The notes under the pieces were generated by a model. That model was not told the DNA's origin and ran no database searches. It saw only the letters and a list, made by a program, of their open reading frames with translations. Shown here piece by piece: positions 9,594-28,610 of a stretch of DNA of 35,125 nucleotides. The stretch comes from a virus (taxonomy: Duplodnaviria; Caudoviricetes): IMG/VR virus record IMGVR_UViG_3300017754_001394, positions 1 through 35,125 of that record; one strand, given 5' to 3'. How positions within the stretch are numbered: position 1 is the first letter of the stretch; every line of letters begins with the position of its first letter. Made by a program: the position numbers and the translations under genes.

Positions 9594-10076
9594 ATGAATT
9601 ACACCTGGACTCCTGCTCACGGCAACGATGTTGAGCACATCGTAAATATGGCTGAAAGCCACTTCCAATCTGAGATTGACTTAATCTTCAAACCAGAACC
9701 TGTTGTTTACAGCAGAAATATCACTTTAGCAGTGGTAAATCAGTTCTATTCCCCTCTCTCCGAACTTTTAAGTGTCTGTAAAGACGACACAGGCAAGTTA
9801 ATAGCCTATACTTGGGCAGTTATTGAAGTTGCAACTTGGTCAGATGATAGAATCTTAGCTATCAAAATGGCACACGTTGACCTTTCATTATCTGCTAAAC
9901 TTCGCATTAAGATTGTCAAAGATATGTTTAATCTTTGGGAAACTTTTGCGTTGTTATCAAATACCCCTATCATATGCAGTACTACAATGCGTAGAGACCA
10001 AGATGGTTTCTTAAAGCTACACGAGAAAAACGGTTACGATGTTCGCGGTAGCTACGCATATAAAAGATTATTCTAA
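9594..10076 (+). CDS. GNAT-fold (acetyltransferase-like) protein
   Basis: 160 aa; N-terminal TPAHGNDVEHIVNM, central GKLIAYTWA strand and C-terminal FLKLHEKNGY follow the GNAT pattern. Confidence 0.55.
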   Translation: MNYTWTPAHGNDVEHIVNMAESHFQSEIDLIFKPEPVVYSRNITLAVVNQFYSPLSELLSVCKDDTGKLIAYTWAVIEVATWSDDRILAIKMAHVDLSLSAKLRIKIVKDMFNLWETFALLSNTPIICSTTMRRDQDGFLKLHEKNGYDVRGSYAYKRLF

Positions 10077-10499
10077 AGTGCTACGCAACATCCAGATTTG
10101 TTTCTCTAAAGCTAAGATTCTGTCTTGGCTGTAGTTACCGATTTCTTCGTAGCCTTCTGTTTCGCTGATTCTCATCAGTTCTTCATACTGTTCTTTTAAT
10201 TCTAACAAGTCCATCATAATAGAGCTTAGTAAATCATCACTAGATCCTTCTAGGATACCTGTACCAATATGGCTTTGATTCAATACATCTTGAATCTCGA
10301 CTGGCATGAACTCATCCATTGCACGTAATAGTTCTGCGATAGTATCGATTTGGTCTTGTAGACTTTCGTATATCTTTTCTAATAACTTGTGGTCGCTATA
10401 AAAGTTTCTACCTACAATATTAACATGAGCCAAATGCGCTCTGTAATATGCTACGAAATTGTCATTAAAGACTTGTGTTAACTGTTCTTGTGTGTTCAT
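10068..10499 (-). CDS. dps: Dps/ferritin-like protein
   Basis: 143 aa; HVNIVGRNFYSDHKLLEKIYE, DTIAE and C-terminal EKQIWMLRS match Dps signatures. Confidence 0.85.
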   Translation of the reverse strand: MNTQEQLTQVFNDNFVAYYRAHLAHVNIVGRNFYSDHKLLEKIYESLQDQIDTIAELLRAMDEFMPVEIQDVLNQSHIGTGILEGSSDDLLSSIMMDLLELKEQYEELMRISETEGYEEIGNYSQDRILALEKQIWMLRSTLE

Positions 10500-20580: not shown

Positions 20581-20584
20581 GAAT

Positions 20585-20820
20585 CTGCTAACTCTGGCGT
20601 TTTTTAAGCCCCTCAGTTAGCAGAGTTAGCAGCGGCCTCTACGGATATTAAAGAATGTGAGAGAATGAGAAAGTACAAAGTACCCTGCAGGCGCGTATAA
20701 GAGAGGGAGGGTATCAATTTCGCTTTAGTATATATGTGTATAGCTGCTAACTGCTAACTGCTAACTGAGGCACTTTTCTGCTAACTTTGCTAACTCTCTG
20801 CTAACTCTCTGCTAACTCTG
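20585..20820. repeat. Iteron-like TGCTAACT array, putative replication origin
   Basis: 8 plus-strand copies (9-mers starting 20585, 20744, 20751, 20758, 20778, 20787, 20798, 20809) and 2 inverted copies (20615, 20624) around a ~110-nt core; non-coding, at the strand switch, upstream of primase/helicase. Confidence 0.75.
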
Positions 20821-20874
20821 AGCCACATTTTATGACGAATTTGCCCAAAACATGTAGCTAAAACGTATATCTGG

Positions 20875-20883
20875 TGTTACAAT
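20875..20883 (+). promoter_or_regulatory. Possible sigma70 extended -10 (TGtTACAAT)
   Basis: TGn plus 5/6 match to TATAAT; weak -35 (TAGCTA). Confidence 0.4.
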
Positions 20884-20884
20884 G

Positions 20885-20892
20885 TATAAATA
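20885..20892 (+). promoter_or_regulatory. TATAAATA, exact T4 late-promoter consensus, upstream of the replication operon
   Basis: Direct 8/8 match in non-coding DNA, co-oriented with the plus-strand operon. Confidence 0.65.
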
Positions 20893-20940
20893 CACTGTAG
20901 ACAATGTTTCGTGACATTTACATTGTGTATATTCCTAAAA

Positions 20941-21005
20941 TTTGTCAAACGAAGTCCCCGGTCTGAACCCCGGGGCTTCATCTCAGGTTCAGCGAGATTG
21001 ACAAA
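20941..21005 (+). ncRNA. Three-way-junction structured element with kissing loops
   Basis: P1 tttgtcaa/ttgacaaa; P2 gaag(t)ccccgg/ccggggcttc; P3 tctc/gaga; loops ctgaacc (20963-20969) and ggttcag (20986-20992) are exact complements. Confidence 0.65.
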
Positions 21006-21039
21006 GATGACAAGGAAACAAATTTTATAGGAAATGAAT

Positions 21040-21210
21040 ATGAACAAAGAATTAAGTATGATGAATCTGATCCGTCTGGATACAGAGTTAGAGAATGCGC
21101 TTGGCTTTCGAGAAGCAGCGATTCGTAGTGAAGACATGTGTGAGTTTATTGTCTGGGACAATGAAGTTAACAACATCGTCAATGAAATAGAAAACTTAGG
21201 AGAAGTATAA
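21040..21210 (+). CDS. Small acidic hypothetical protein (56 aa, not in ORF track)
   Basis: MNKELSMMNLIRLDTELENALGFREAAIRSEDMCEFIVWDNEVNNIVNEIENLGEV; AGGA RBS; TAATG overlap with the next ORF. Confidence 0.7.
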   Translation: MNKELSMMNLIRLDTELENALGFREAAIRSEDMCEFIVWDNEVNNIVNEIENLGEV

Positions 21211-21380
21211 TGAATGACTTAGTAAAGACCCAACAACAACTATACAAAGTAATGAACCAGTTGGAGAACTGGAAGATGAGTGGGTATGACACGCCCATGA
21301 TGACATACCATGAACAGATGGAAGAATATGTAGTCAGAATTGAATTGTTAAAACTAAAACTAAAGGAAGAAATGAAATGA
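21210..21380 (+). CDS. Small helical hypothetical protein (56 aa, not in ORF track)
   Basis: MNDLVKTQQQLYKVMNQLENWKMSGYDTPMMTYHEQMEEYVVRIELLKLKLKEEMK; AGGAG RBS; ATGA overlap downstream. Confidence 0.7.
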   Translation: MNDLVKTQQQLYKVMNQLENWKMSGYDTPMMTYHEQMEEYVVRIELLKLKLKEEMK

Positions 21381-21811
21381 AATTAGACGAAATGTACAAC
21401 AAGACAGGTGAAGAGATTTTTAACCAGATAGTAAGCGAAGCTACAGGACCAACAGCATTGATTAAGTTCAAAGGAACTATGATAGGTAATAAGCCTGAAA
21501 TTATACAGCAACATCATTATATTTCAGGTGAGTTGTCTGATGCAATACACATGCTTAAAAATGATAGAGATAGTGGACCCGAAACTATCAACCAATTAGT
21601 AGCCGTAAAAGAAAAGATTTTCAACTTCAACTATAACAACTTTGAATATAACGGAACAGAAGTAGCTAAAAGAATTAACAAGATTAATGAGAAGTTAACT
21701 GATATCCGTTTACATCAAGAAACCGTAAACAAAAAGATTGACTACCTCAGAGAAGCTAAAGAGGTTATTGGTATTGAGATTGAATTGATGAGACTTGGCA
21801 TTGATGCGTGA
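21377..21811 (+). CDS. Hypothetical coiled-coil protein
   Basis: 144 aa, AAGGA RBS, coupled on both sides. Confidence 0.75.
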   Translation: MKLDEMYNKTGEEIFNQIVSEATGPTALIKFKGTMIGNKPEIIQQHHYISGELSDAIHMLKNDRDSGPETINQLVAVKEKIFNFNYNNFEYNGTEVAKRINKINEKLTDIRLHQETVNKKIDYLREAKEVIGIEIELMRLGIDA

Positions 21812-22724
21812 TACGGAATTAAGTCTACTACCTGACTGGAGATTCTGCAAGATCCCATATGGTGAGAAAGGTCCAAGATATAAAGACTGGCACAAGAAGC
21901 CATTTACTTTACAACAAGTACCACAAGATAACAACATAGGTATCATCTTAGGTCCAGCAAGCAATGGTATATTAGCTATTGACTTCGATGGACCTTGGGC
22001 TTGGGAATACTGGAATGAACATATTTGTATTCCATTCGATAGTTTCGATACAGTAATGTGGACAAGCAACAAGCCAGGACGCTGTCAAATGGCATTCACA
22101 GTACCTAAAGACTTATGGGAACACGTACCCACAGTGTTCAAAAAGAACAAGCCTGAACCAGAACTTGACGGTAAGTTCCAAGCGATTGAATTTAGATGGG
22201 GGACTGTAGATGTATCATGTCAATCAGTTCTTCCACCTAGCTTACATCCAGATAACAAGATTGACCCAAACATCAACTATCAATGGCTACGTAGCCCAAG
22301 TGAAACAACGGTAGCAGAAGTTCCAATGAGACTATTAGAATGGGCTATACTAGACAGACAAACAGTGAACAATTATGTTCCTGATCCAGTTGAGAAGTTT
22401 GAAGCTAAGAACGTAGACGGGGAAGAAGCTAATAAACTATGTGAAGAACTGAAGAAGTATTACCCTAACCTAGACTATGAAACATGGATCAGAGTTACTT
22501 GGGCCTTCTGTAACTCAGTAGGATATAATGATGGAATAGCTATTATGAGCTACTACTACCCAGAGCAAAAGAAGGGTGAGTATGCCAAGCTAAGTAGAAG
22601 TCACACTAGCAAAAAGCAATGTACAATCGGTACAGTGATTAAGATGATTAACGATAGAAAGCCCAAAGCTATTACAAAAGATGACGGCCTGTTCTATAAT
22701 AGCAATGTAAGGGATTTAATATGA
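21795..22724 (+). CDS. Bifunctional primase/polymerase (Prim-Pol) with PriCT-2 domain
   Basis: IPYGEKGP, NIGIILG, ILAIDFDG, QSVLPPSLHP, YQW and C-terminal YETWIRV; true start may be ATG 21804. Confidence 0.85.
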   Translation: MALMRDTELSLLPDWRFCKIPYGEKGPRYKDWHKKPFTLQQVPQDNNIGIILGPASNGILAIDFDGPWAWEYWNEHICIPFDSFDTVMWTSNKPGRCQMAFTVPKDLWEHVPTVFKKNKPEPELDGKFQAIEFRWGTVDVSCQSVLPPSLHPDNKIDPNINYQWLRSPSETTVAEVPMRLLEWAILDRQTVNNYVPDPVEKFEAKNVDGEEANKLCEELKKYYPNLDYETWIRVTWAFCNSVGYNDGIAIMSYYYPEQKKGEYAKLSRSHTSKKQCTIGTVIKMINDRKPKAITKDDGLFYNSNVRDLI

Positions 22725-24295
22725 TAGATAAAGATAAAGAGAAGAAGCTAGCAGAGATGCGTAGAAATCTCAATAAAACCAGAGACGAGGTTTTATCGCC
22801 GAAGTTAGCTCTTTTTACTGAAGAAAAGAAGCAAGTTAGACCACGTTCAGAGATTTTAGCCGAAGTTAAAACAGACAAATTAAAGTTCAAGTTTTTACCC
22901 CCTTTGCTATCATACACTATGCTAGCACTAAAAGAGATTAATAATGTACCAGAAGAGATGGCTATTCAAGCTATCTTAGGAACTGTGAACTTCGCTACCC
23001 AGAGTCTGTATAACGTAGATCCTGTGTTCTTTGGCGGTGCAATCATTCCCACAACAGACTATTTCATCGCATTAGCGCCCACAGCTGGTATGAAAAGTAC
23101 AGTTTACAAGATGTTGGATCATGGTATCAAACGATTCGAAGAAGATGAGAAAGTTAGATATGGTAATGAAATTCAAGTGTATAAACTAGCACATGCTATT
23201 TGGTCTAAAGAATACGAGAAGCTAGAAAAGACACTGACTCCTGAAGACTTGAAAGATAAAGATAGATTCGATGCATTAGTATCTTCAGTTGGACCAGAGC
23301 CACAGAAGCCAGCTAGCTTTAAGTATAGATTGAGTACAGGTACAAGAAACGGTTTAATTGACTTCTTATCTAATGTACCACATGGTGGTATGAGTAGTAG
23401 TGAAGCTGGTGAATTCTTTAATGGTCATGCATTCCAAGAAGGTAAGAACAACTCAAAGGGATTTGAGATGATTACTACATTGACTAACTTGTGGGATGGA
23501 GCACCGATCGAAAAGAACACAGGCGTAGATGTAAAGAGTATCCAGAATCGTAGATTCACAATGCTATTTCTATTACAGAAAGCGATGGCTAAAGATTGGT
23601 TAGGTAACAAATTGTATAGTGAACAGGGATTCGTACATCGTTTGTTGATTACGCATTGTGATTACTGGGATGTACCTGAGATGGATCGTACCAGAGTCCC
23701 AGACTTGAAAGCTAGTCAACAAAAGCTAGTTATGTTCCATGATAGAATCTATGAACTACTGAAGAAAGATAGACAGTTCAGAGAAGATTCATCATTAGAA
23801 CTTGACTTGCCCATGATTCAAATGAGCAACGAAGCAATCGATAAACTAGCAGAGTTTGACAACCTAATCAAGAGAGAGCAGACTACAACATATGCAGAGT
23901 TTCAAGGATTTGTAGGTCGTTTATACGAACATTGTGTTCGTTTAGCCGCAACAGTTGCAATCTTTGACAATAGTAGTAAAATTGAGCTACGTCATGCAGA
24001 ATGTGCAATTGAATTAGGCTTCTTCTACCTAGAGCAGAGAATGACATTAGACTTGGGAGCTAACACAAAGTACGCTAACCAAGTGTCGATTGCTGAGAAA
24101 CTGACGTTTGAGATTATTAAGAAGATTCGTTCGGGAGTTACGATTGACAAGAAATGGTTAAGTCAATCAAGTCCTGCATACTTCAGAGGATTAAGCAGAG
24201 ATGAACGTCATAAGATTATAGAAGAAGTTATCAGTAGAGGTACACTGAAACAAGAGAAAGTAAATAACGTAACAGTTATGTCCATTATAGAATAA
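22721..24295 (+). CDS. DUF3987/YfjI-type P-loop helicase-like replication protein
   Basis: 524 aa; APTAGMKS Walker A variant, SSEAGEFF, LWDG, GFVHRLL, RLYEHCVRLA; coupled to the primase. Confidence 0.75.
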   Translation: MIDKDKEKKLAEMRRNLNKTRDEVLSPKLALFTEEKKQVRPRSEILAEVKTDKLKFKFLPPLLSYTMLALKEINNVPEEMAIQAILGTVNFATQSLYNVDPVFFGGAIIPTTDYFIALAPTAGMKSTVYKMLDHGIKRFEEDEKVRYGNEIQVYKLAHAIWSKEYEKLEKTLTPEDLKDKDRFDALVSSVGPEPQKPASFKYRLSTGTRNGLIDFLSNVPHGGMSSSEAGEFFNGHAFQEGKNNSKGFEMITTLTNLWDGAPIEKNTGVDVKSIQNRRFTMLFLLQKAMAKDWLGNKLYSEQGFVHRLLITHCDYWDVPEMDRTRVPDLKASQQKLVMFHDRIYELLKKDRQFREDSSLELDLPMIQMSNEAIDKLAEFDNLIKREQTTTYAEFQGFVGRLYEHCVRLAATVAIFDNSSKIELRHAECAIELGFFYLEQRMTLDLGANTKYANQVSIAEKLTFEIIKKIRSGVTIDKKWLSQSSPAYFRGLSRDERHKIIEEVISRGTLKQEKVNNVTVMSIIE

Positions 24296-25574: not shown

Positions 25575-28500
25575 TTATCCTGATACAGTCCAACCCTTAC
25601 CAATCGCTTGGTTAGTGTTTAAGTTACGTGCAGTTAGTGTTGCAGCCGCGTTAGTAATACCACACACACCACTAATGATAACGTTAGCGTTAGCGTTAAC
25701 AGTTACAACTTGATTGCTTATAGTTGCGCCGCCAATAGTCATAACACCAGTACCGTTTGTTACTAAGTTGATAGCTGCGCCGCCTGCAGCCGTAGATACT
25801 TGGAATGTAGTACTAGTTCTACCTACCACGTAGTACGTAGTGTTGATTACAATACCAGTTGTAGTAGTAATAGCAGTAAATCTAACCATATCACCGTTAG
25901 CCAAACCGTTTAAACCGCCGCCGTTAGTATACACAACTGTATTCGCAGCATCGTTAAACGTGACAGGGATACCTGTATTCATGCCAGTACCATATAAGAA
26001 TGTACCTGTCAATACACCAACAGTGTTAGCCATTGTAACTACGTTAGATCCAGCAGTTGTACCACTTGTTTTAGCGTTGGCAATATCGGTGCCTGGGTTA
26101 CTACTAATAGAAATAGTCTGTGCAGTTGTTACCGGTATTAATGTGTTAGCAAAAATACTTTCCATTTCTGTTTTACCAAAACTACATGTAGCAACTGTAA
26201 ATGTAAACCTAGCATTACTTACATTCGATAATTTACTTAATGAAGGTGTGTTAACAAATGTTAATGTGGCCGCCGCCACTGCCACATTACCTAAGTTAAT
26301 ATTACTAATATCAACTAATGAACTTGCAACTTGAAACATTGTTGAAAAGTTAGCCACAGCATTAGTACCAAGGTTAGCAAAATTTAATGAATTGAAGCCA
26401 CTGCTGTTAGCAAATGAAATTGTACTAGTACAATTGACTAAATTTAACGTAGGTAAATTAGTCAAAGAACTACAGGTTTGAAACATTGAAGCAGCATTAT
26501 TAACTTTACTAGTATCAATAGGAGGCATTGAAGATAAACTTCTAGCAGCGTTGCACATATTATATGCGTTCGTAACATTACTAGTATTTAAGTTTGCAAT
26601 TGTTTGTACTTTGCTGTTTGCAAACATACTTGACATATCAGTTACATTACTAGTATCAAACGCTGGTATAGAAATGATTGATGAGTTTGAAAATGTGTTG
26701 GACATGTTAGCCACTTTACTAGTATTGATAGTTGGGATATCAAGTAATCTACTAGTACCAGAGAAAGTATAAGCCATATTAGTAGCATTACTTGTATTAA
26801 TATTAGGAACTACTTTAATGCCACTATTAGCAAACGTATTGGTAAAATTGGTACAATTTATGGTATTAATATTTGCAATAGTAACTAAATTAGTAGTGTT
26901 ACTAAATGCGTTTGCTAATGTTGTTACATTACTCATATTAAACTGAGGTATAGTAGTTAAACTACTACATGAACTAAATGCATTTGTAAAGGTAGCAACG
27001 TTAGTAAAGTTAAACAGTGGCACTGAAACTAAGTTAACACAACCGTTAAACATACTTGTTGTGTTTGTGGCTTTACTAGTATTATATAATGGTACAGTTG
27101 TTAAACCGGAACAACCATTAAACATCGAAATAAAGTTAGTAACGTTACCAGTGTCAAAAAATGGTACGTTGTCACTTGTTAATGAAACACAGTTGAAAAA
27201 CATACTTGAAGTACTAACAATGTTAGTAGTATTAGTAGGAGCTTTTACTACTCTTAACGCAGTACAACCGCTAAACATGGTACCAGGATCAGTTAATGCT
27301 GTTGTGGTAGTTATTGTAGGGGCAACTTCTAAAGAAGTACATCCAGTAAACATACCATTTATGTTAGTCACAGAGGGCAAATAGTAATCAGGACAATATA
27401 ACAAGCTGGTGCAACCATTAAACATAGTTGTAGCTAATATTGCGACACTAGTATTAGTAGTGCTTAACGCAGGAGCGGATATTAATCCGCTGTTACTAAA
27501 CATACTAGTCATGTCAGTAATTTGAATATTAGGATCTATAACAACGTTTTGCAAACTTCTTAAGTTAGCGAATGTTGAGTTAAAGGTAACTATTTGCTCT
27601 GCAGGACCAGGGACTGTAATTTGCTCTAGCATATACAATGGTGAAGTACTATTACTGTTTATTACAAATGCTTCACCTGGTAAGTTAATACTCATGTCTA
27701 ACCATCTAGCTGTATAGTTGTTCAATGTACCGCTGGTAGGAGTATATCTAACGTTGAAGTTGGCAGTCCCTATCCTTAAATTAGTATTCCAACTGGCGCC
27801 TACGCCACCATATGCATTAATAGTTACCGCCGCTGTTTTGTATCCGCGACTACATACAACTCCCGGCACACTAGAATAAACATAATTATGTTGCGCTTGT
27901 ACTGCGGTGTTAACTATATCAACTACACCATCTCCCCAATCCACTTGATAGTTTGCTGTAAGAGTCAAAGATGCGGGACTTATCAATGTATTAACTGTTT
28001 GACTAATGTTAACTGTAGCAGATATAGCTTGTCTGCTAGTCAATGTACCGTTGAAGCCACCTCCACCTACACATGTGTAGGTTCCAGTCCCACCTGTACC
28101 GGTTAAAAACGCACTAACATATTTTGTGCCACCAACAGCGTTAGTATAAAAAGCCGTGCCAACTACAATTGGGTCGCCGGTCATTGATGTAATAGTCAAT
28201 GTAGAAGTAGTAATATCAAAACTACCGTTAATTATACTGCTGTTAACTGAAGTAACATAGGTACCAGCAGCAACCCCGGTACCAGTTACTGATTGTCCAG
28301 TATAGATACCTGAATTCAGGGTACCGCCTGGTGTAGAAAAGGTTAAAGTAGTGCCTTGAATAGTTCCATCAGATGAAGTAAGATACGGGACTGTAACAGT
28401 ACAATTAAAAGCAACATAGTTACTACTCTGGTCATATACCGCATAGATACCTGTAGCATAATATGTGTCAGCTACTGTAGGTAATGCAGTCCAATCACTA

Positions 28501-28610
28501 GGTCTTGTATACGTAGTTGGCGTATTGTATGGAGTTGGATTCAACTGAGGCTGTAGAATGTTTCTACGACCGTTATTAATTAAATTCTGCTCTAATGTGG
28601 TGCTAGCCAT
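25575..28610 (-). CDS. BspA/DUF285-like repeat protein, putative receptor-binding protein
   Basis: 1011 aa; many ~22-25 aa repeats of the type dTsnvtnmssMFxxCxsLxxvP; PKD-like VDWGDG. Confidence 0.75.
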   Translation of the reverse strand: MASTTLEQNLINNGRRNILQPQLNPTPYNTPTTYTRPSDWTALPTVADTYYATGIYAVYDQSSNYVAFNCTVTVPYLTSSDGTIQGTTLTFSTPGGTLNSGIYTGQSVTGTGVAAGTYVTSVNSSIINGSFDITTSTLTITSMTGDPIVVGTAFYTNAVGGTKYVSAFLTGTGGTGTYTCVGGGGFNGTLTSRQAISATVNISQTVNTLISPASLTLTANYQVDWGDGVVDIVNTAVQAQHNYVYSSVPGVVCSRGYKTAAVTINAYGGVGASWNTNLRIGTANFNVRYTPTSGTLNNYTARWLDMSINLPGEAFVINSNSTSPLYMLEQITVPGPAEQIVTFNSTFANLRSLQNVVIDPNIQITDMTSMFSNSGLISAPALSTTNTSVAILATTMFNGCTSLLYCPDYYLPSVTNINGMFTGCTSLEVAPTITTTTALTDPGTMFSGCTALRVVKAPTNTTNIVSTSSMFFNCVSLTSDNVPFFDTGNVTNFISMFNGCSGLTTVPLYNTSKATNTTSMFNGCVNLVSVPLFNFTNVATFTNAFSSCSSLTTIPQFNMSNVTTLANAFSNTTNLVTIANINTINCTNFTNTFANSGIKVVPNINTSNATNMAYTFSGTSRLLDIPTINTSKVANMSNTFSNSSIISIPAFDTSNVTDMSSMFANSKVQTIANLNTSNVTNAYNMCNAARSLSSMPPIDTSKVNNAASMFQTCSSLTNLPTLNLVNCTSTISFANSSGFNSLNFANLGTNAVANFSTMFQVASSLVDISNINLGNVAVAAATLTFVNTPSLSKLSNVSNARFTFTVATCSFGKTEMESIFANTLIPVTTAQTISISSNPGTDIANAKTSGTTAGSNVVTMANTVGVLTGTFLYGTGMNTGIPVTFNDAANTVVYTNGGGLNGLANGDMVRFTAITTTTGIVINTTYYVVGRTSTTFQVSTAAGGAAINLVTNGTGVMTIGGATISNQVVTVNANANVIISGVCGITNAAATLTARNLNTNQAIGKGWTVSG

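What the first reader, a model, noticed from the sequence alone, without database searches (positions are those of the whole stretch)
20941..21005. Compact three-way junction with perfectly complementary 7-nt kissing loops
In 65 nt, an 8-bp closing stem encloses two hairpins whose loops (CUGAACC and GGUUCAG) pair exactly. It ends ~35 nt before the first plus-strand ORF. The topology recalls purine riboswitches and phi29 pRNA hand-in-hand loops, but I see neither family's conserved sequence. It may be a new cis-regulatory RNA, a multimerising RNA, or an ssDNA priming structure beside the origin. The pairs are Watson-Crick, so the strand is not fixed by structure.
Basis: partly seen in the sequence, partly recalled or inferred. 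Interest (0 to 1): 0.75.

Follow-up and report, generated by a model that had tools for sequence, protein, structure and literature searches.

The report
Kissing-loop switch before phage replication genes
Uncultured freshwater phages keep a small folded sequence, with two hairpin loops that change together so as to stay complementary, at the front of their DNA-replication genes; it matches no Rfam family and, as RNA, likely works as an on/off switch that exposes or hides the first gene's ribosome-binding site.

Summary
The fold is real and conserved, but it is only the core of a ~150-nt leader. I found 22 leaders (about 15 clearly distinct) in related phages. All follow a TAAATA box and a 5' hairpin and precede a small ORF and/or a primase-helicase module. 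All 22 keep a 6-8-bp loop-loop match in five mutually exclusive sequence classes; 10 of 21 stem pairs covary. Predicted energies are close. G·U pairs fix the plus strand. No Rfam match; not a purine riboswitch, pRNA or ssDNA priming site. Best reading: a translational switch for the replication operon, locked ON by the kiss. The trigger is unknown. No expression data. Earlier scan notes describe similar-architecture leaders on other phage DNA, none sequence-similar.

The parts
20855..20883 (+). sigma70-like promoter: -35 TAGCTA, 17 nt, -10 TACAAT (predicted)
   Evidence: a similarly placed -10 box (5-9 nt before TAAATA) in 10 of 22 members, near-consensus TTGACA/TATACT in L138; missed by the stricter scan
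20887..20892 (+). TAAATA box (resembles the T4 late promoter consensus, recalled)
   Evidence: present at the head of all 22 leaders; also precedes most morphogenesis gene blocks of the window
20890..20930 (+). 5' hairpin H0, sequence variable, position conserved
   Evidence: predicted in 21 of 21 leaders folded
20932..20948 (+). switch strand: anti-SD UUCCU + AAAAUUUGU(CAA); pairs with P1 3'/decoy or with the SD region
20951..20979 (+). P2 hairpin, 9-11 bp in the family; loop L2 20962-20969 with YUNR at its 5' side
   Evidence: 8 of 10 P2 pairs show two-sided changes
20980..20980 (+). J2/3 adenosine, invariant
   Evidence: 22 of 22
20981..20997 (+). P3 hairpin; loop L3 20985-20993 complementary to L2
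21013..21017 (+). decoy AGGAA that takes up the anti-SD in the P1 state
21018..21033 (+). P0 3' strand ACAAAUUUUA plus Shine-Dalgarno AGGAA (21029-21033)
   Evidence: 10-nt perfect inverted repeat with 20936-20945 (I24); covaries across members
21040..21210 (+). first ORF, 56 aa, acidic two-helix hairpin of unknown function
   Evidence: no family at a useful E-value, no fold match at E<=0.001
21210..24295 (+). overlapping chain of ORFs: 56 aa, 144 aa, Prim-Pol (21804-22724), DUF3987 helicase-like (22721-24295)

Best explanation
This is the conserved 5' leader of a phage replication operon, and as RNA it likely acts as a two-state translation switch: one 5' strand is complementary both to the junction-closing stem plus a decoy GGA and to the real ribosome-binding site, and the loop-loop kiss would lock the first, open state. 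SHOWN: leader position, covarying stems, covarying loop complementarity, two covarying registers for the same strand, overlapping ORFs down to the primase. PREDICTED: P1 and the decoy helix form before the SD strand is transcribed, so new mRNA starts ON; the two folds are close in energy; losing P1/decoy closes the SD. INFERRED: the kiss packs P2 against P1/P3 and tips the balance to ON; when the kiss is lost or exchanged, the strand slips onto the SD, and translation of ORF1 and the coupled primase-helicase falls. The trigger is not identified. I favour an RNA pairing at the YUNR loop, most simply another copy of the same leader, over a metabolite or the operon's own proteins.
For: Kiss of 6-8 bp in 22 of 22 leaders, five loop classes, cognate 6-7 WC pairs against 1-4 across classes; six of seven kiss positions change on both sides. 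Nested structure: 97.2% of cells paired, 10 of 21 pairs with two-sided change, 0 of 500 shuffles, slid controls 34-55%. Forcing P1-3'+decoy unpaired drops P(SD open) to <=0.004 in 22 of 22; unconstrained it is 0.014-0.95, window 0.16. Shuffled switch strands match both partners as well in <=3 of 1000 for 12 of 13 representatives, 18 of 1000 for L138. Cognate switch:SD duplex is the strongest of its row in 10 of 14, beaten by a near-identical relative in 2. L138/L139 keep the whole layout with different letters directly before the Prim-Pol start. P1+decoy appear by 21017, before the SD. YUNR at the 5' side of L2 in 21 of 22. One copy per genome in the whole records scanned.
Against: No expression, probing or reporter data. 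Energies omit the kiss, so its coupling to P1 is assumed. Blocking the switch strand opened the SD (P>=0.4) in only 16 of 22, and not in the window itself (0.008). L355 and L382 are predicted >90% open, L130/L131/L126 <3% open, so the balance is not uniform. L124 and L138 switch strands pair better with other classes' SD regions than with their own. Alignment A5 was fitted to the structure and members are related, so the counts are not independent events. Only 11 of 41 Prim-Pol locus clusters carry it, so the module does not need it.
Confidence: 0.55

Rival explanations
This is a specific form of the best explanation.
For: Coarse rigid-helix dimer closes without penalty only for P2+kiss+P3 = 19-23 bp of 15-29 tested (J2/3=1, J1/2=2), axes parallel at 21-22; all 22 members have 20-22, or 21-23 counting an extra A-U. 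Loops have 0-2 spare nucleotides. Intramolecular models kept a penalty of 15-33 against 4 for the unlinked kiss and had no minimum at P2=10-11. YUNR loop.
Against: Helix coordinates were recalled and the model is crude; its positive control (7-bp kiss, no spare bases) failed with penalty 62, so intramolecular kissing is not excluded. With J1/2=1 the dimer never reached zero penalty (minimum about 10). Shared ancestry alone would keep lengths alike. An intramolecular partner has a large concentration advantage (general knowledge).
Confidence: 0.25
2. Kinetic timer with no trans factor, as in the MS2 maturation-gene leader: the ON fold forms first, the kiss slows the slip, and each mRNA is translated for a limited time.
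For: ON fold forms first; the cost of opening the SD is larger at 10 C than at 37 C in most members, up to 4.9 kcal/mol; precedent in PMC4615214 (passages).
Against: L355, L382, L152, L184 and L138 need <=0.4 kcal/mol to open the SD at every temperature tested, before any kiss bonus, so OFF is not their end state.
Confidence: 0.17
3. Cis-encoded antisense control as in IncI plasmid ColIb-P9: a countertranscript binds L2, breaks the activating pseudoknot and shuts the initiator off.
For: Same logic upstream of a replication protein, small ORF overlapping the primase, L2 class UUAGCG close to the rUUGGCG loop named in a reference title of PMC4705826; YUNR 21 of 22.
Against: No conserved antisense promoter: best scores 11-16 against a background median of 13 and 95th percentile of 16, at scattered positions. 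No conserved U-tract after P2 on the minus strand. No integrase, partition or repressor family among 35 window proteins or 62 proteins of relatives. No plasmid match.
Confidence: 0.08
4. Riboswitch for a small molecule or ion, or a site for a host protein, that stabilises the junction (add-type ON switch).
For: Three-way junction with L2-L3 contact and P1 as switching helix; junction letters identical in 9 of the first 9 rows of A5 despite different loops.
Against: Across all 22 only the J2/3 A, the first G-C of P2 and one kiss U-A are invariant; junction strands are 1-4, 1 and 0-3 nt, small for a pocket. ORF1 is acidic (pI 4.1-4.8), and the identical leader precedes unrelated primase domains in L150 and L354, against autoregulation by either.
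Confidence: 0.12
5. ssDNA priming or origin structure, or a packaging RNA.
For: Iteron-like repeats lie 120-360 nt upstream in the window; a Prim-Pol gene follows.
Against: Covarying anti-SD register; several members follow a same-strand ORF directly; the phage has a large terminase and SU10-type portal, not a phi29-type motor.
Confidence: 0.03

Closest known systems
rep leader of IncI-alpha plasmid ColIb-P9 (repY/repZ, Inc RNA); PMC4705826 and PMC9977716, passages read
   Same: Leader of a replication gene; a hairpin loop pairs within the mRNA to open a masked ribosome site; small upstream ORF coupled to the replication gene; similar loop letters in one class.
   Different: Here the partner is a second hairpin loop one base away, not a strand next to the SD; the masking strand lies 5' and has a decoy register; no antisense promoter found; lytic-looking phage, not a plasmid.
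5' leader of the MS2/Levivirus maturation gene; PMC4615214, passages read
   Same: 5' hairpin, upstream strand that pairs with the SD at long range with covariation, and an earlier-forming fold that hides that strand.
   Different: dsDNA phage; the permissive fold is a kissing three-way junction of similar predicted stability, not a small metastable hairpin.
Purine riboswitch, translational add type (Rfam RF00167; features recalled)
   Same: Three-way junction, L2-L3 contact, P1 competing with an SD-masking helix.
   Different: No Rfam hit; 1-nt J2/3, no conserved pocket; the kiss is 6-8 freely covarying Watson-Crick pairs.
phi29 pRNA (features recalled)
   Same: Two complementary loops on a three-way junction that could pair between molecules.
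   Different: mRNA leader with an anti-SD register; terminase-type phage; no Rfam hit; multimers not shown.
PeSL cassettes of T4-type phages; PMC2839356, abstract and outline only
   Same: Conserved promoter plus structure at the head of a swappable module.
   Different: Single copy per genome, no terminator U-tract, complex fold.

Membership tests
Purine riboswitch RF00167 | Three-way junction with L2-L3 interaction | tested here: met
   (sequence level only)
Purine riboswitch RF00167 | Long conserved J2/3 and J3/1 pocket; Rfam gathering score | tested here: not met
   J2/3 is one A; no hit
Purine riboswitch RF00167 | Ligand binding | not testable with these tools
   needs in-line probing
phi29 pRNA | Complementary left- and right-hand loops | tested here: met
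phi29 pRNA | Loops pair between molecules | tested here: inconclusive
   dimer fits, intramolecular control failed
phi29 pRNA | phi29-type packaging motor; Rfam match | tested here: not met
   large terminase and SU10 portal; no Rfam hit
IncI-complex pseudoknot/antisense rep leader | Target loop that pairs within the mRNA; small ORF coupled to the replication gene | tested here: met
   coupling inferred from overlaps
IncI-complex pseudoknot/antisense rep leader | Cis-encoded antisense RNA | tested here: inconclusive
   no conserved promoter; no RNA data
IncI-complex pseudoknot/antisense rep leader | Plasmid replicon, sequence homology | tested here: not met
Levivirus maturation leader | Upstream strand pairs with the SD, with covariation; earlier fold hides it | tested here: met
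   (computed)
Levivirus maturation leader | Permissive fold is metastable | tested here: inconclusive
   OFF favoured in most members, not in five
Levivirus maturation leader | ssRNA phage, homology | tested here: not met
sar RNA RF00262 | Gathering score 43 bits | tested here: not met
   15.6 bits, 25.9 bits; the match is to P2 and the bases beside it
Self-cleaving ribozymes | Conserved catalytic core; Rfam match | tested here: not met
   cleavage itself untested

The most novel reading that the evidence does not exclude
Probability: 0.25. Interest if true: 0.87.

Novelty: new variant of a known kind. Interest (0 to 1): 0.64.

Why it matters
Few structured cis-regulatory RNAs are characterised in lytic dsDNA phages. 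This one comes with natural compensatory variants for every helix, the kiss and both registers, so it can be tested in a plain reporter without culturing the phage. At least one unrelated pseudoknotted leader fills the same slot in sister phages, which suggests that translational control of the primase-helicase operon is under repeated selection. If the kiss is between molecules it would be a protein-free copy or multiplicity sensor.

Tried and rejected
Rfam: no gathering-level hit in the window or 17 loci; E-value scans gave only sub-threshold rows. No DNA match in cultured-phage records beyond chance or in plasmids. The loop-only pattern scan was unspecific; one search gave 1 of 123 matches in the family, one search gave 8 of 72 loci, none new. 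The GTDB pattern scan (54 of 64 parts, 120 stretches) gave no member by the profile search, so no host or prophage. No RNA holder listed. MAFFT alignments A2/A3 and model alignment A5 misregister the loops, so the kiss was counted per sequence, not with the count of structure pairs. In one search the enforced helix was mis-picked for L124/L149 and several decoy rows; replace it. Rigid-body test of the intramolecular kiss is uncalibrated. Model R1 missed L124 and L139. A uORF ending in the TGAC of H0 and a third pairing of that TGAC with P1 were seen by eye and not pursued: L128, L129 and L146 lack it and H0 occludes it. ORF1 gave no family, atlas hit >=0.9 or fold match. Literature: nine searches answered found no description of this motif. 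In PMC10690425 six motif strings were absent from three searchable supplements, but files 1, 2 (zip, too large), file 4 for those strings, and mmc1-3 were not searched, so it may be one of that paper's 10,000 candidates. For PMC5737381 only main-text passages were seen.

Full report
Setting. The window is a 35,125-base virus record, 98% complete, with an SU10-type capsid and portal, a large terminase, a ferritin-like gene, and a plus-strand block holding a Prim-Pol (21804-22724) and a DUF3987 helicase-like protein (22721-24295). No integrase, repressor or partition family was found among its 35 proteins scanned. The two runs that hold most of the stretch are labelled freshwater metagenome; one may be the source. 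The host is unknown.

Observation. The 65-nt fold is as described: z -3.15, loops CUGAACC and GGUUCAG. The minus strand folds equally well. Rfam has nothing at gathering level in the window or 17 related loci, and only sub-threshold rows otherwise.

Family. Loci came from Prim-Pol searches, DNA patterns and the ORF1 alignment. Profile, descriptor and by-eye inspection gave 22 leaders including the window, about 15 clearly distinct; exact duplicates (L354, L376, L132, L139, L246, L431, L147) were left out. On the 14 distinct rows aligned to the model, 97.2% of cells pair and 10 of 21 pairs change on both sides; slid controls pair at 34-55% (the alignment is fitted, rows are related). The loops match over 6-8 bp in 22 of 22, in five classes (YUGAAC(C), YUCGCC(U), UUAGCG(G/U), UUGGUAG, GUGAGAA); cognate loops give 6-7 Watson-Crick pairs and other classes 1-4. 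Only the J2/3 A, the first G-C of P2 and the second kiss pair are invariant. G·U pairs in the kiss (L124/L149), P1 (L628) and P2 (L126, L124) put the function on the plus strand. A sequence-free descriptor found 0 hits in 418,168 control bases, and in 800,834 bases of related loci only members plus four off-target rows (two distinct sequences). Whole records hold one copy.

The larger unit. Every member reads: TAAATA, hairpin H0, anti-SD plus switch strand, P2, A, P3, P1 3' strand, decoy GG(A), a strand complementary to the switch strand, SD, AUG. The switch strand and its SD-side partner change together (window AAAAUUUGU/ACAAAUUUU; L150 AAUAUUGU/ACAAUAUU; L332 AUAUAUGU/ACAUAUAU; L138 AUGAC/GUCAU). 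Shuffled strands rarely match both partners (<=3 of 1000 in 12 of 13 representatives). With P1-3' and the decoy forced unpaired the SD closes in 22 of 22; unconstrained, P(open) spans 0.014-0.95. The converse test is less clean: blocking the switch strand opened the SD in 16 of 22, not in the window. In stepwise folding of the window leader P1 and the decoy helix exist by 21017, before the SD is made. These energies leave out the kiss.

What it controls. The first ORF is usually a 50-63-aa acidic two-helix protein with no family; in the window it starts a chain of overlapping ORFs ending in the primase and helicase. In L138/L139 the leader sits directly on the Prim-Pol start, in a phage with a different gene set. 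L150 and L354 carry the same leader and first two ORFs before primases that share only a C-terminal domain. All 4 loci found with that second primase carry the leader, though all were already known through it. Of 41 clusters among 57 Prim-Pol loci, 11 have this leader, 12 a different pseudoknotted leader (plus L140 by eye), and 18 neither as scored, 2 of them short. The target is therefore the replication operon rather than one protein, and the leader is optional.

The trigger. No conserved antisense promoter was found. A ligand pocket is unlikely on conservation grounds, and autoregulation by ORF1 or the primase is unlikely for the reasons above. L2 begins with YUNR in 21 of 22, a signature of natural loop-loop complexes (PMC4872101, passage). 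A coarse rigid-helix model closed an antiparallel two-molecule dimer only for P2+kiss+P3 of 19-23 bp, and the family has 20-22. Intramolecular models stayed strained, but the positive control failed, so this is a hint. Whether the kiss is within or between molecules, and the sign of any trans effect, remain open.

Comparison. It works like the ColIb-P9 rep leader (PMC4705826, PMC9977716, passages), the MS2 maturation leader (PMC4615214, passages) and, in outline, the add riboswitch (recalled). It fails membership of each and of pRNA. Nine literature searches did not find it; the alignments of PMC10690425 could not be searched. Earlier scan notes report kissing three-way-junction leaders with anti-SD elements in other phages; none was sequence-similar, and I could not compare their sequences. 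They pointed me to the MS2 and PeSL papers.

Verdict. A real, uncatalogued, strongly covarying phage leader and likely translational switch (about 0.8 for cis control of the ribosome site, 0.55 for the full kiss-locks-ON model). New variant of a known kind; interest 0.64, or 0.87 if it proves to be an RNA-only copy counter (probability 0.25).

Noticed in passing
L001:3605-3735 (+); also L123, L125, L137, L140, L141, L145, L158, L167, L170, L173, L176, L177, L185: A second, unrelated structured leader fills the same slot (TAAATA, 5' hairpin, then a larger fold) before the Prim-Pol operon. L001 folds at z -4.5; by eye it has a covarying pseudoknot; no Rfam hit in the members scanned; profile hits. 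Deserves its own study.
   Followed up: partly
L133 about 540 nt and L134/L135/L157 about 400 nt upstream of the Prim-Pol start: A third conserved non-coding stretch of about 120 nt, shared by two divergent phages, before the ORFs that precede the primase.
   Followed up: no
window, minus strand 1292, 2835, 5156, 8133, 9207, 14942, 17457, 20275, 20580, 33686: TAAATA boxes, like the T4 late promoter (recalled), precede most morphogenesis gene blocks, yet no sigma factor was detected in this 35-kb genome. A 265-aa ORF in G005 (L639:6986-7783) looks gp55-like by eye but had no Pfam hit. Possible use of a host or helper-phage factor.
   Followed up: partly
window 20584-20632 and 20744-20820: Iteron-like CTGCTAAC repeats in two opposed clusters between the divergent promoters; candidate origin or repressor array.
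   Followed up: no
L150 against L354/L376: Same leader and first two ORFs, followed by different primase and helicase modules; helicase partners among relatives are DUF3987, DUF5906 or VapE-like.
   Followed up: partly
window 21040-21210: Unnamed family of small acidic helical hairpins (L, A, W, I invariant; pLDDT 93), at times in distant tandem copies (L628) or without the leader (L127); candidate DNA mimic or host-takeover protein.
   Followed up: partly
window 10068-10499 (-): Ferritin/Dps-like gene inside the virion gene block, kept in all seven relatives compared.
   Followed up: no
window 20936-20983, run X1: Summed contig depth rises to 250-540 over the junction core against about 20 on the flanks, with loose ends showing other loop variants: many co-occurring phages share the core.
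   Followed up: no
window 25575-28610 (-): 1011-aa tail-region protein with five DUF285 repeats.
   Followed up: no
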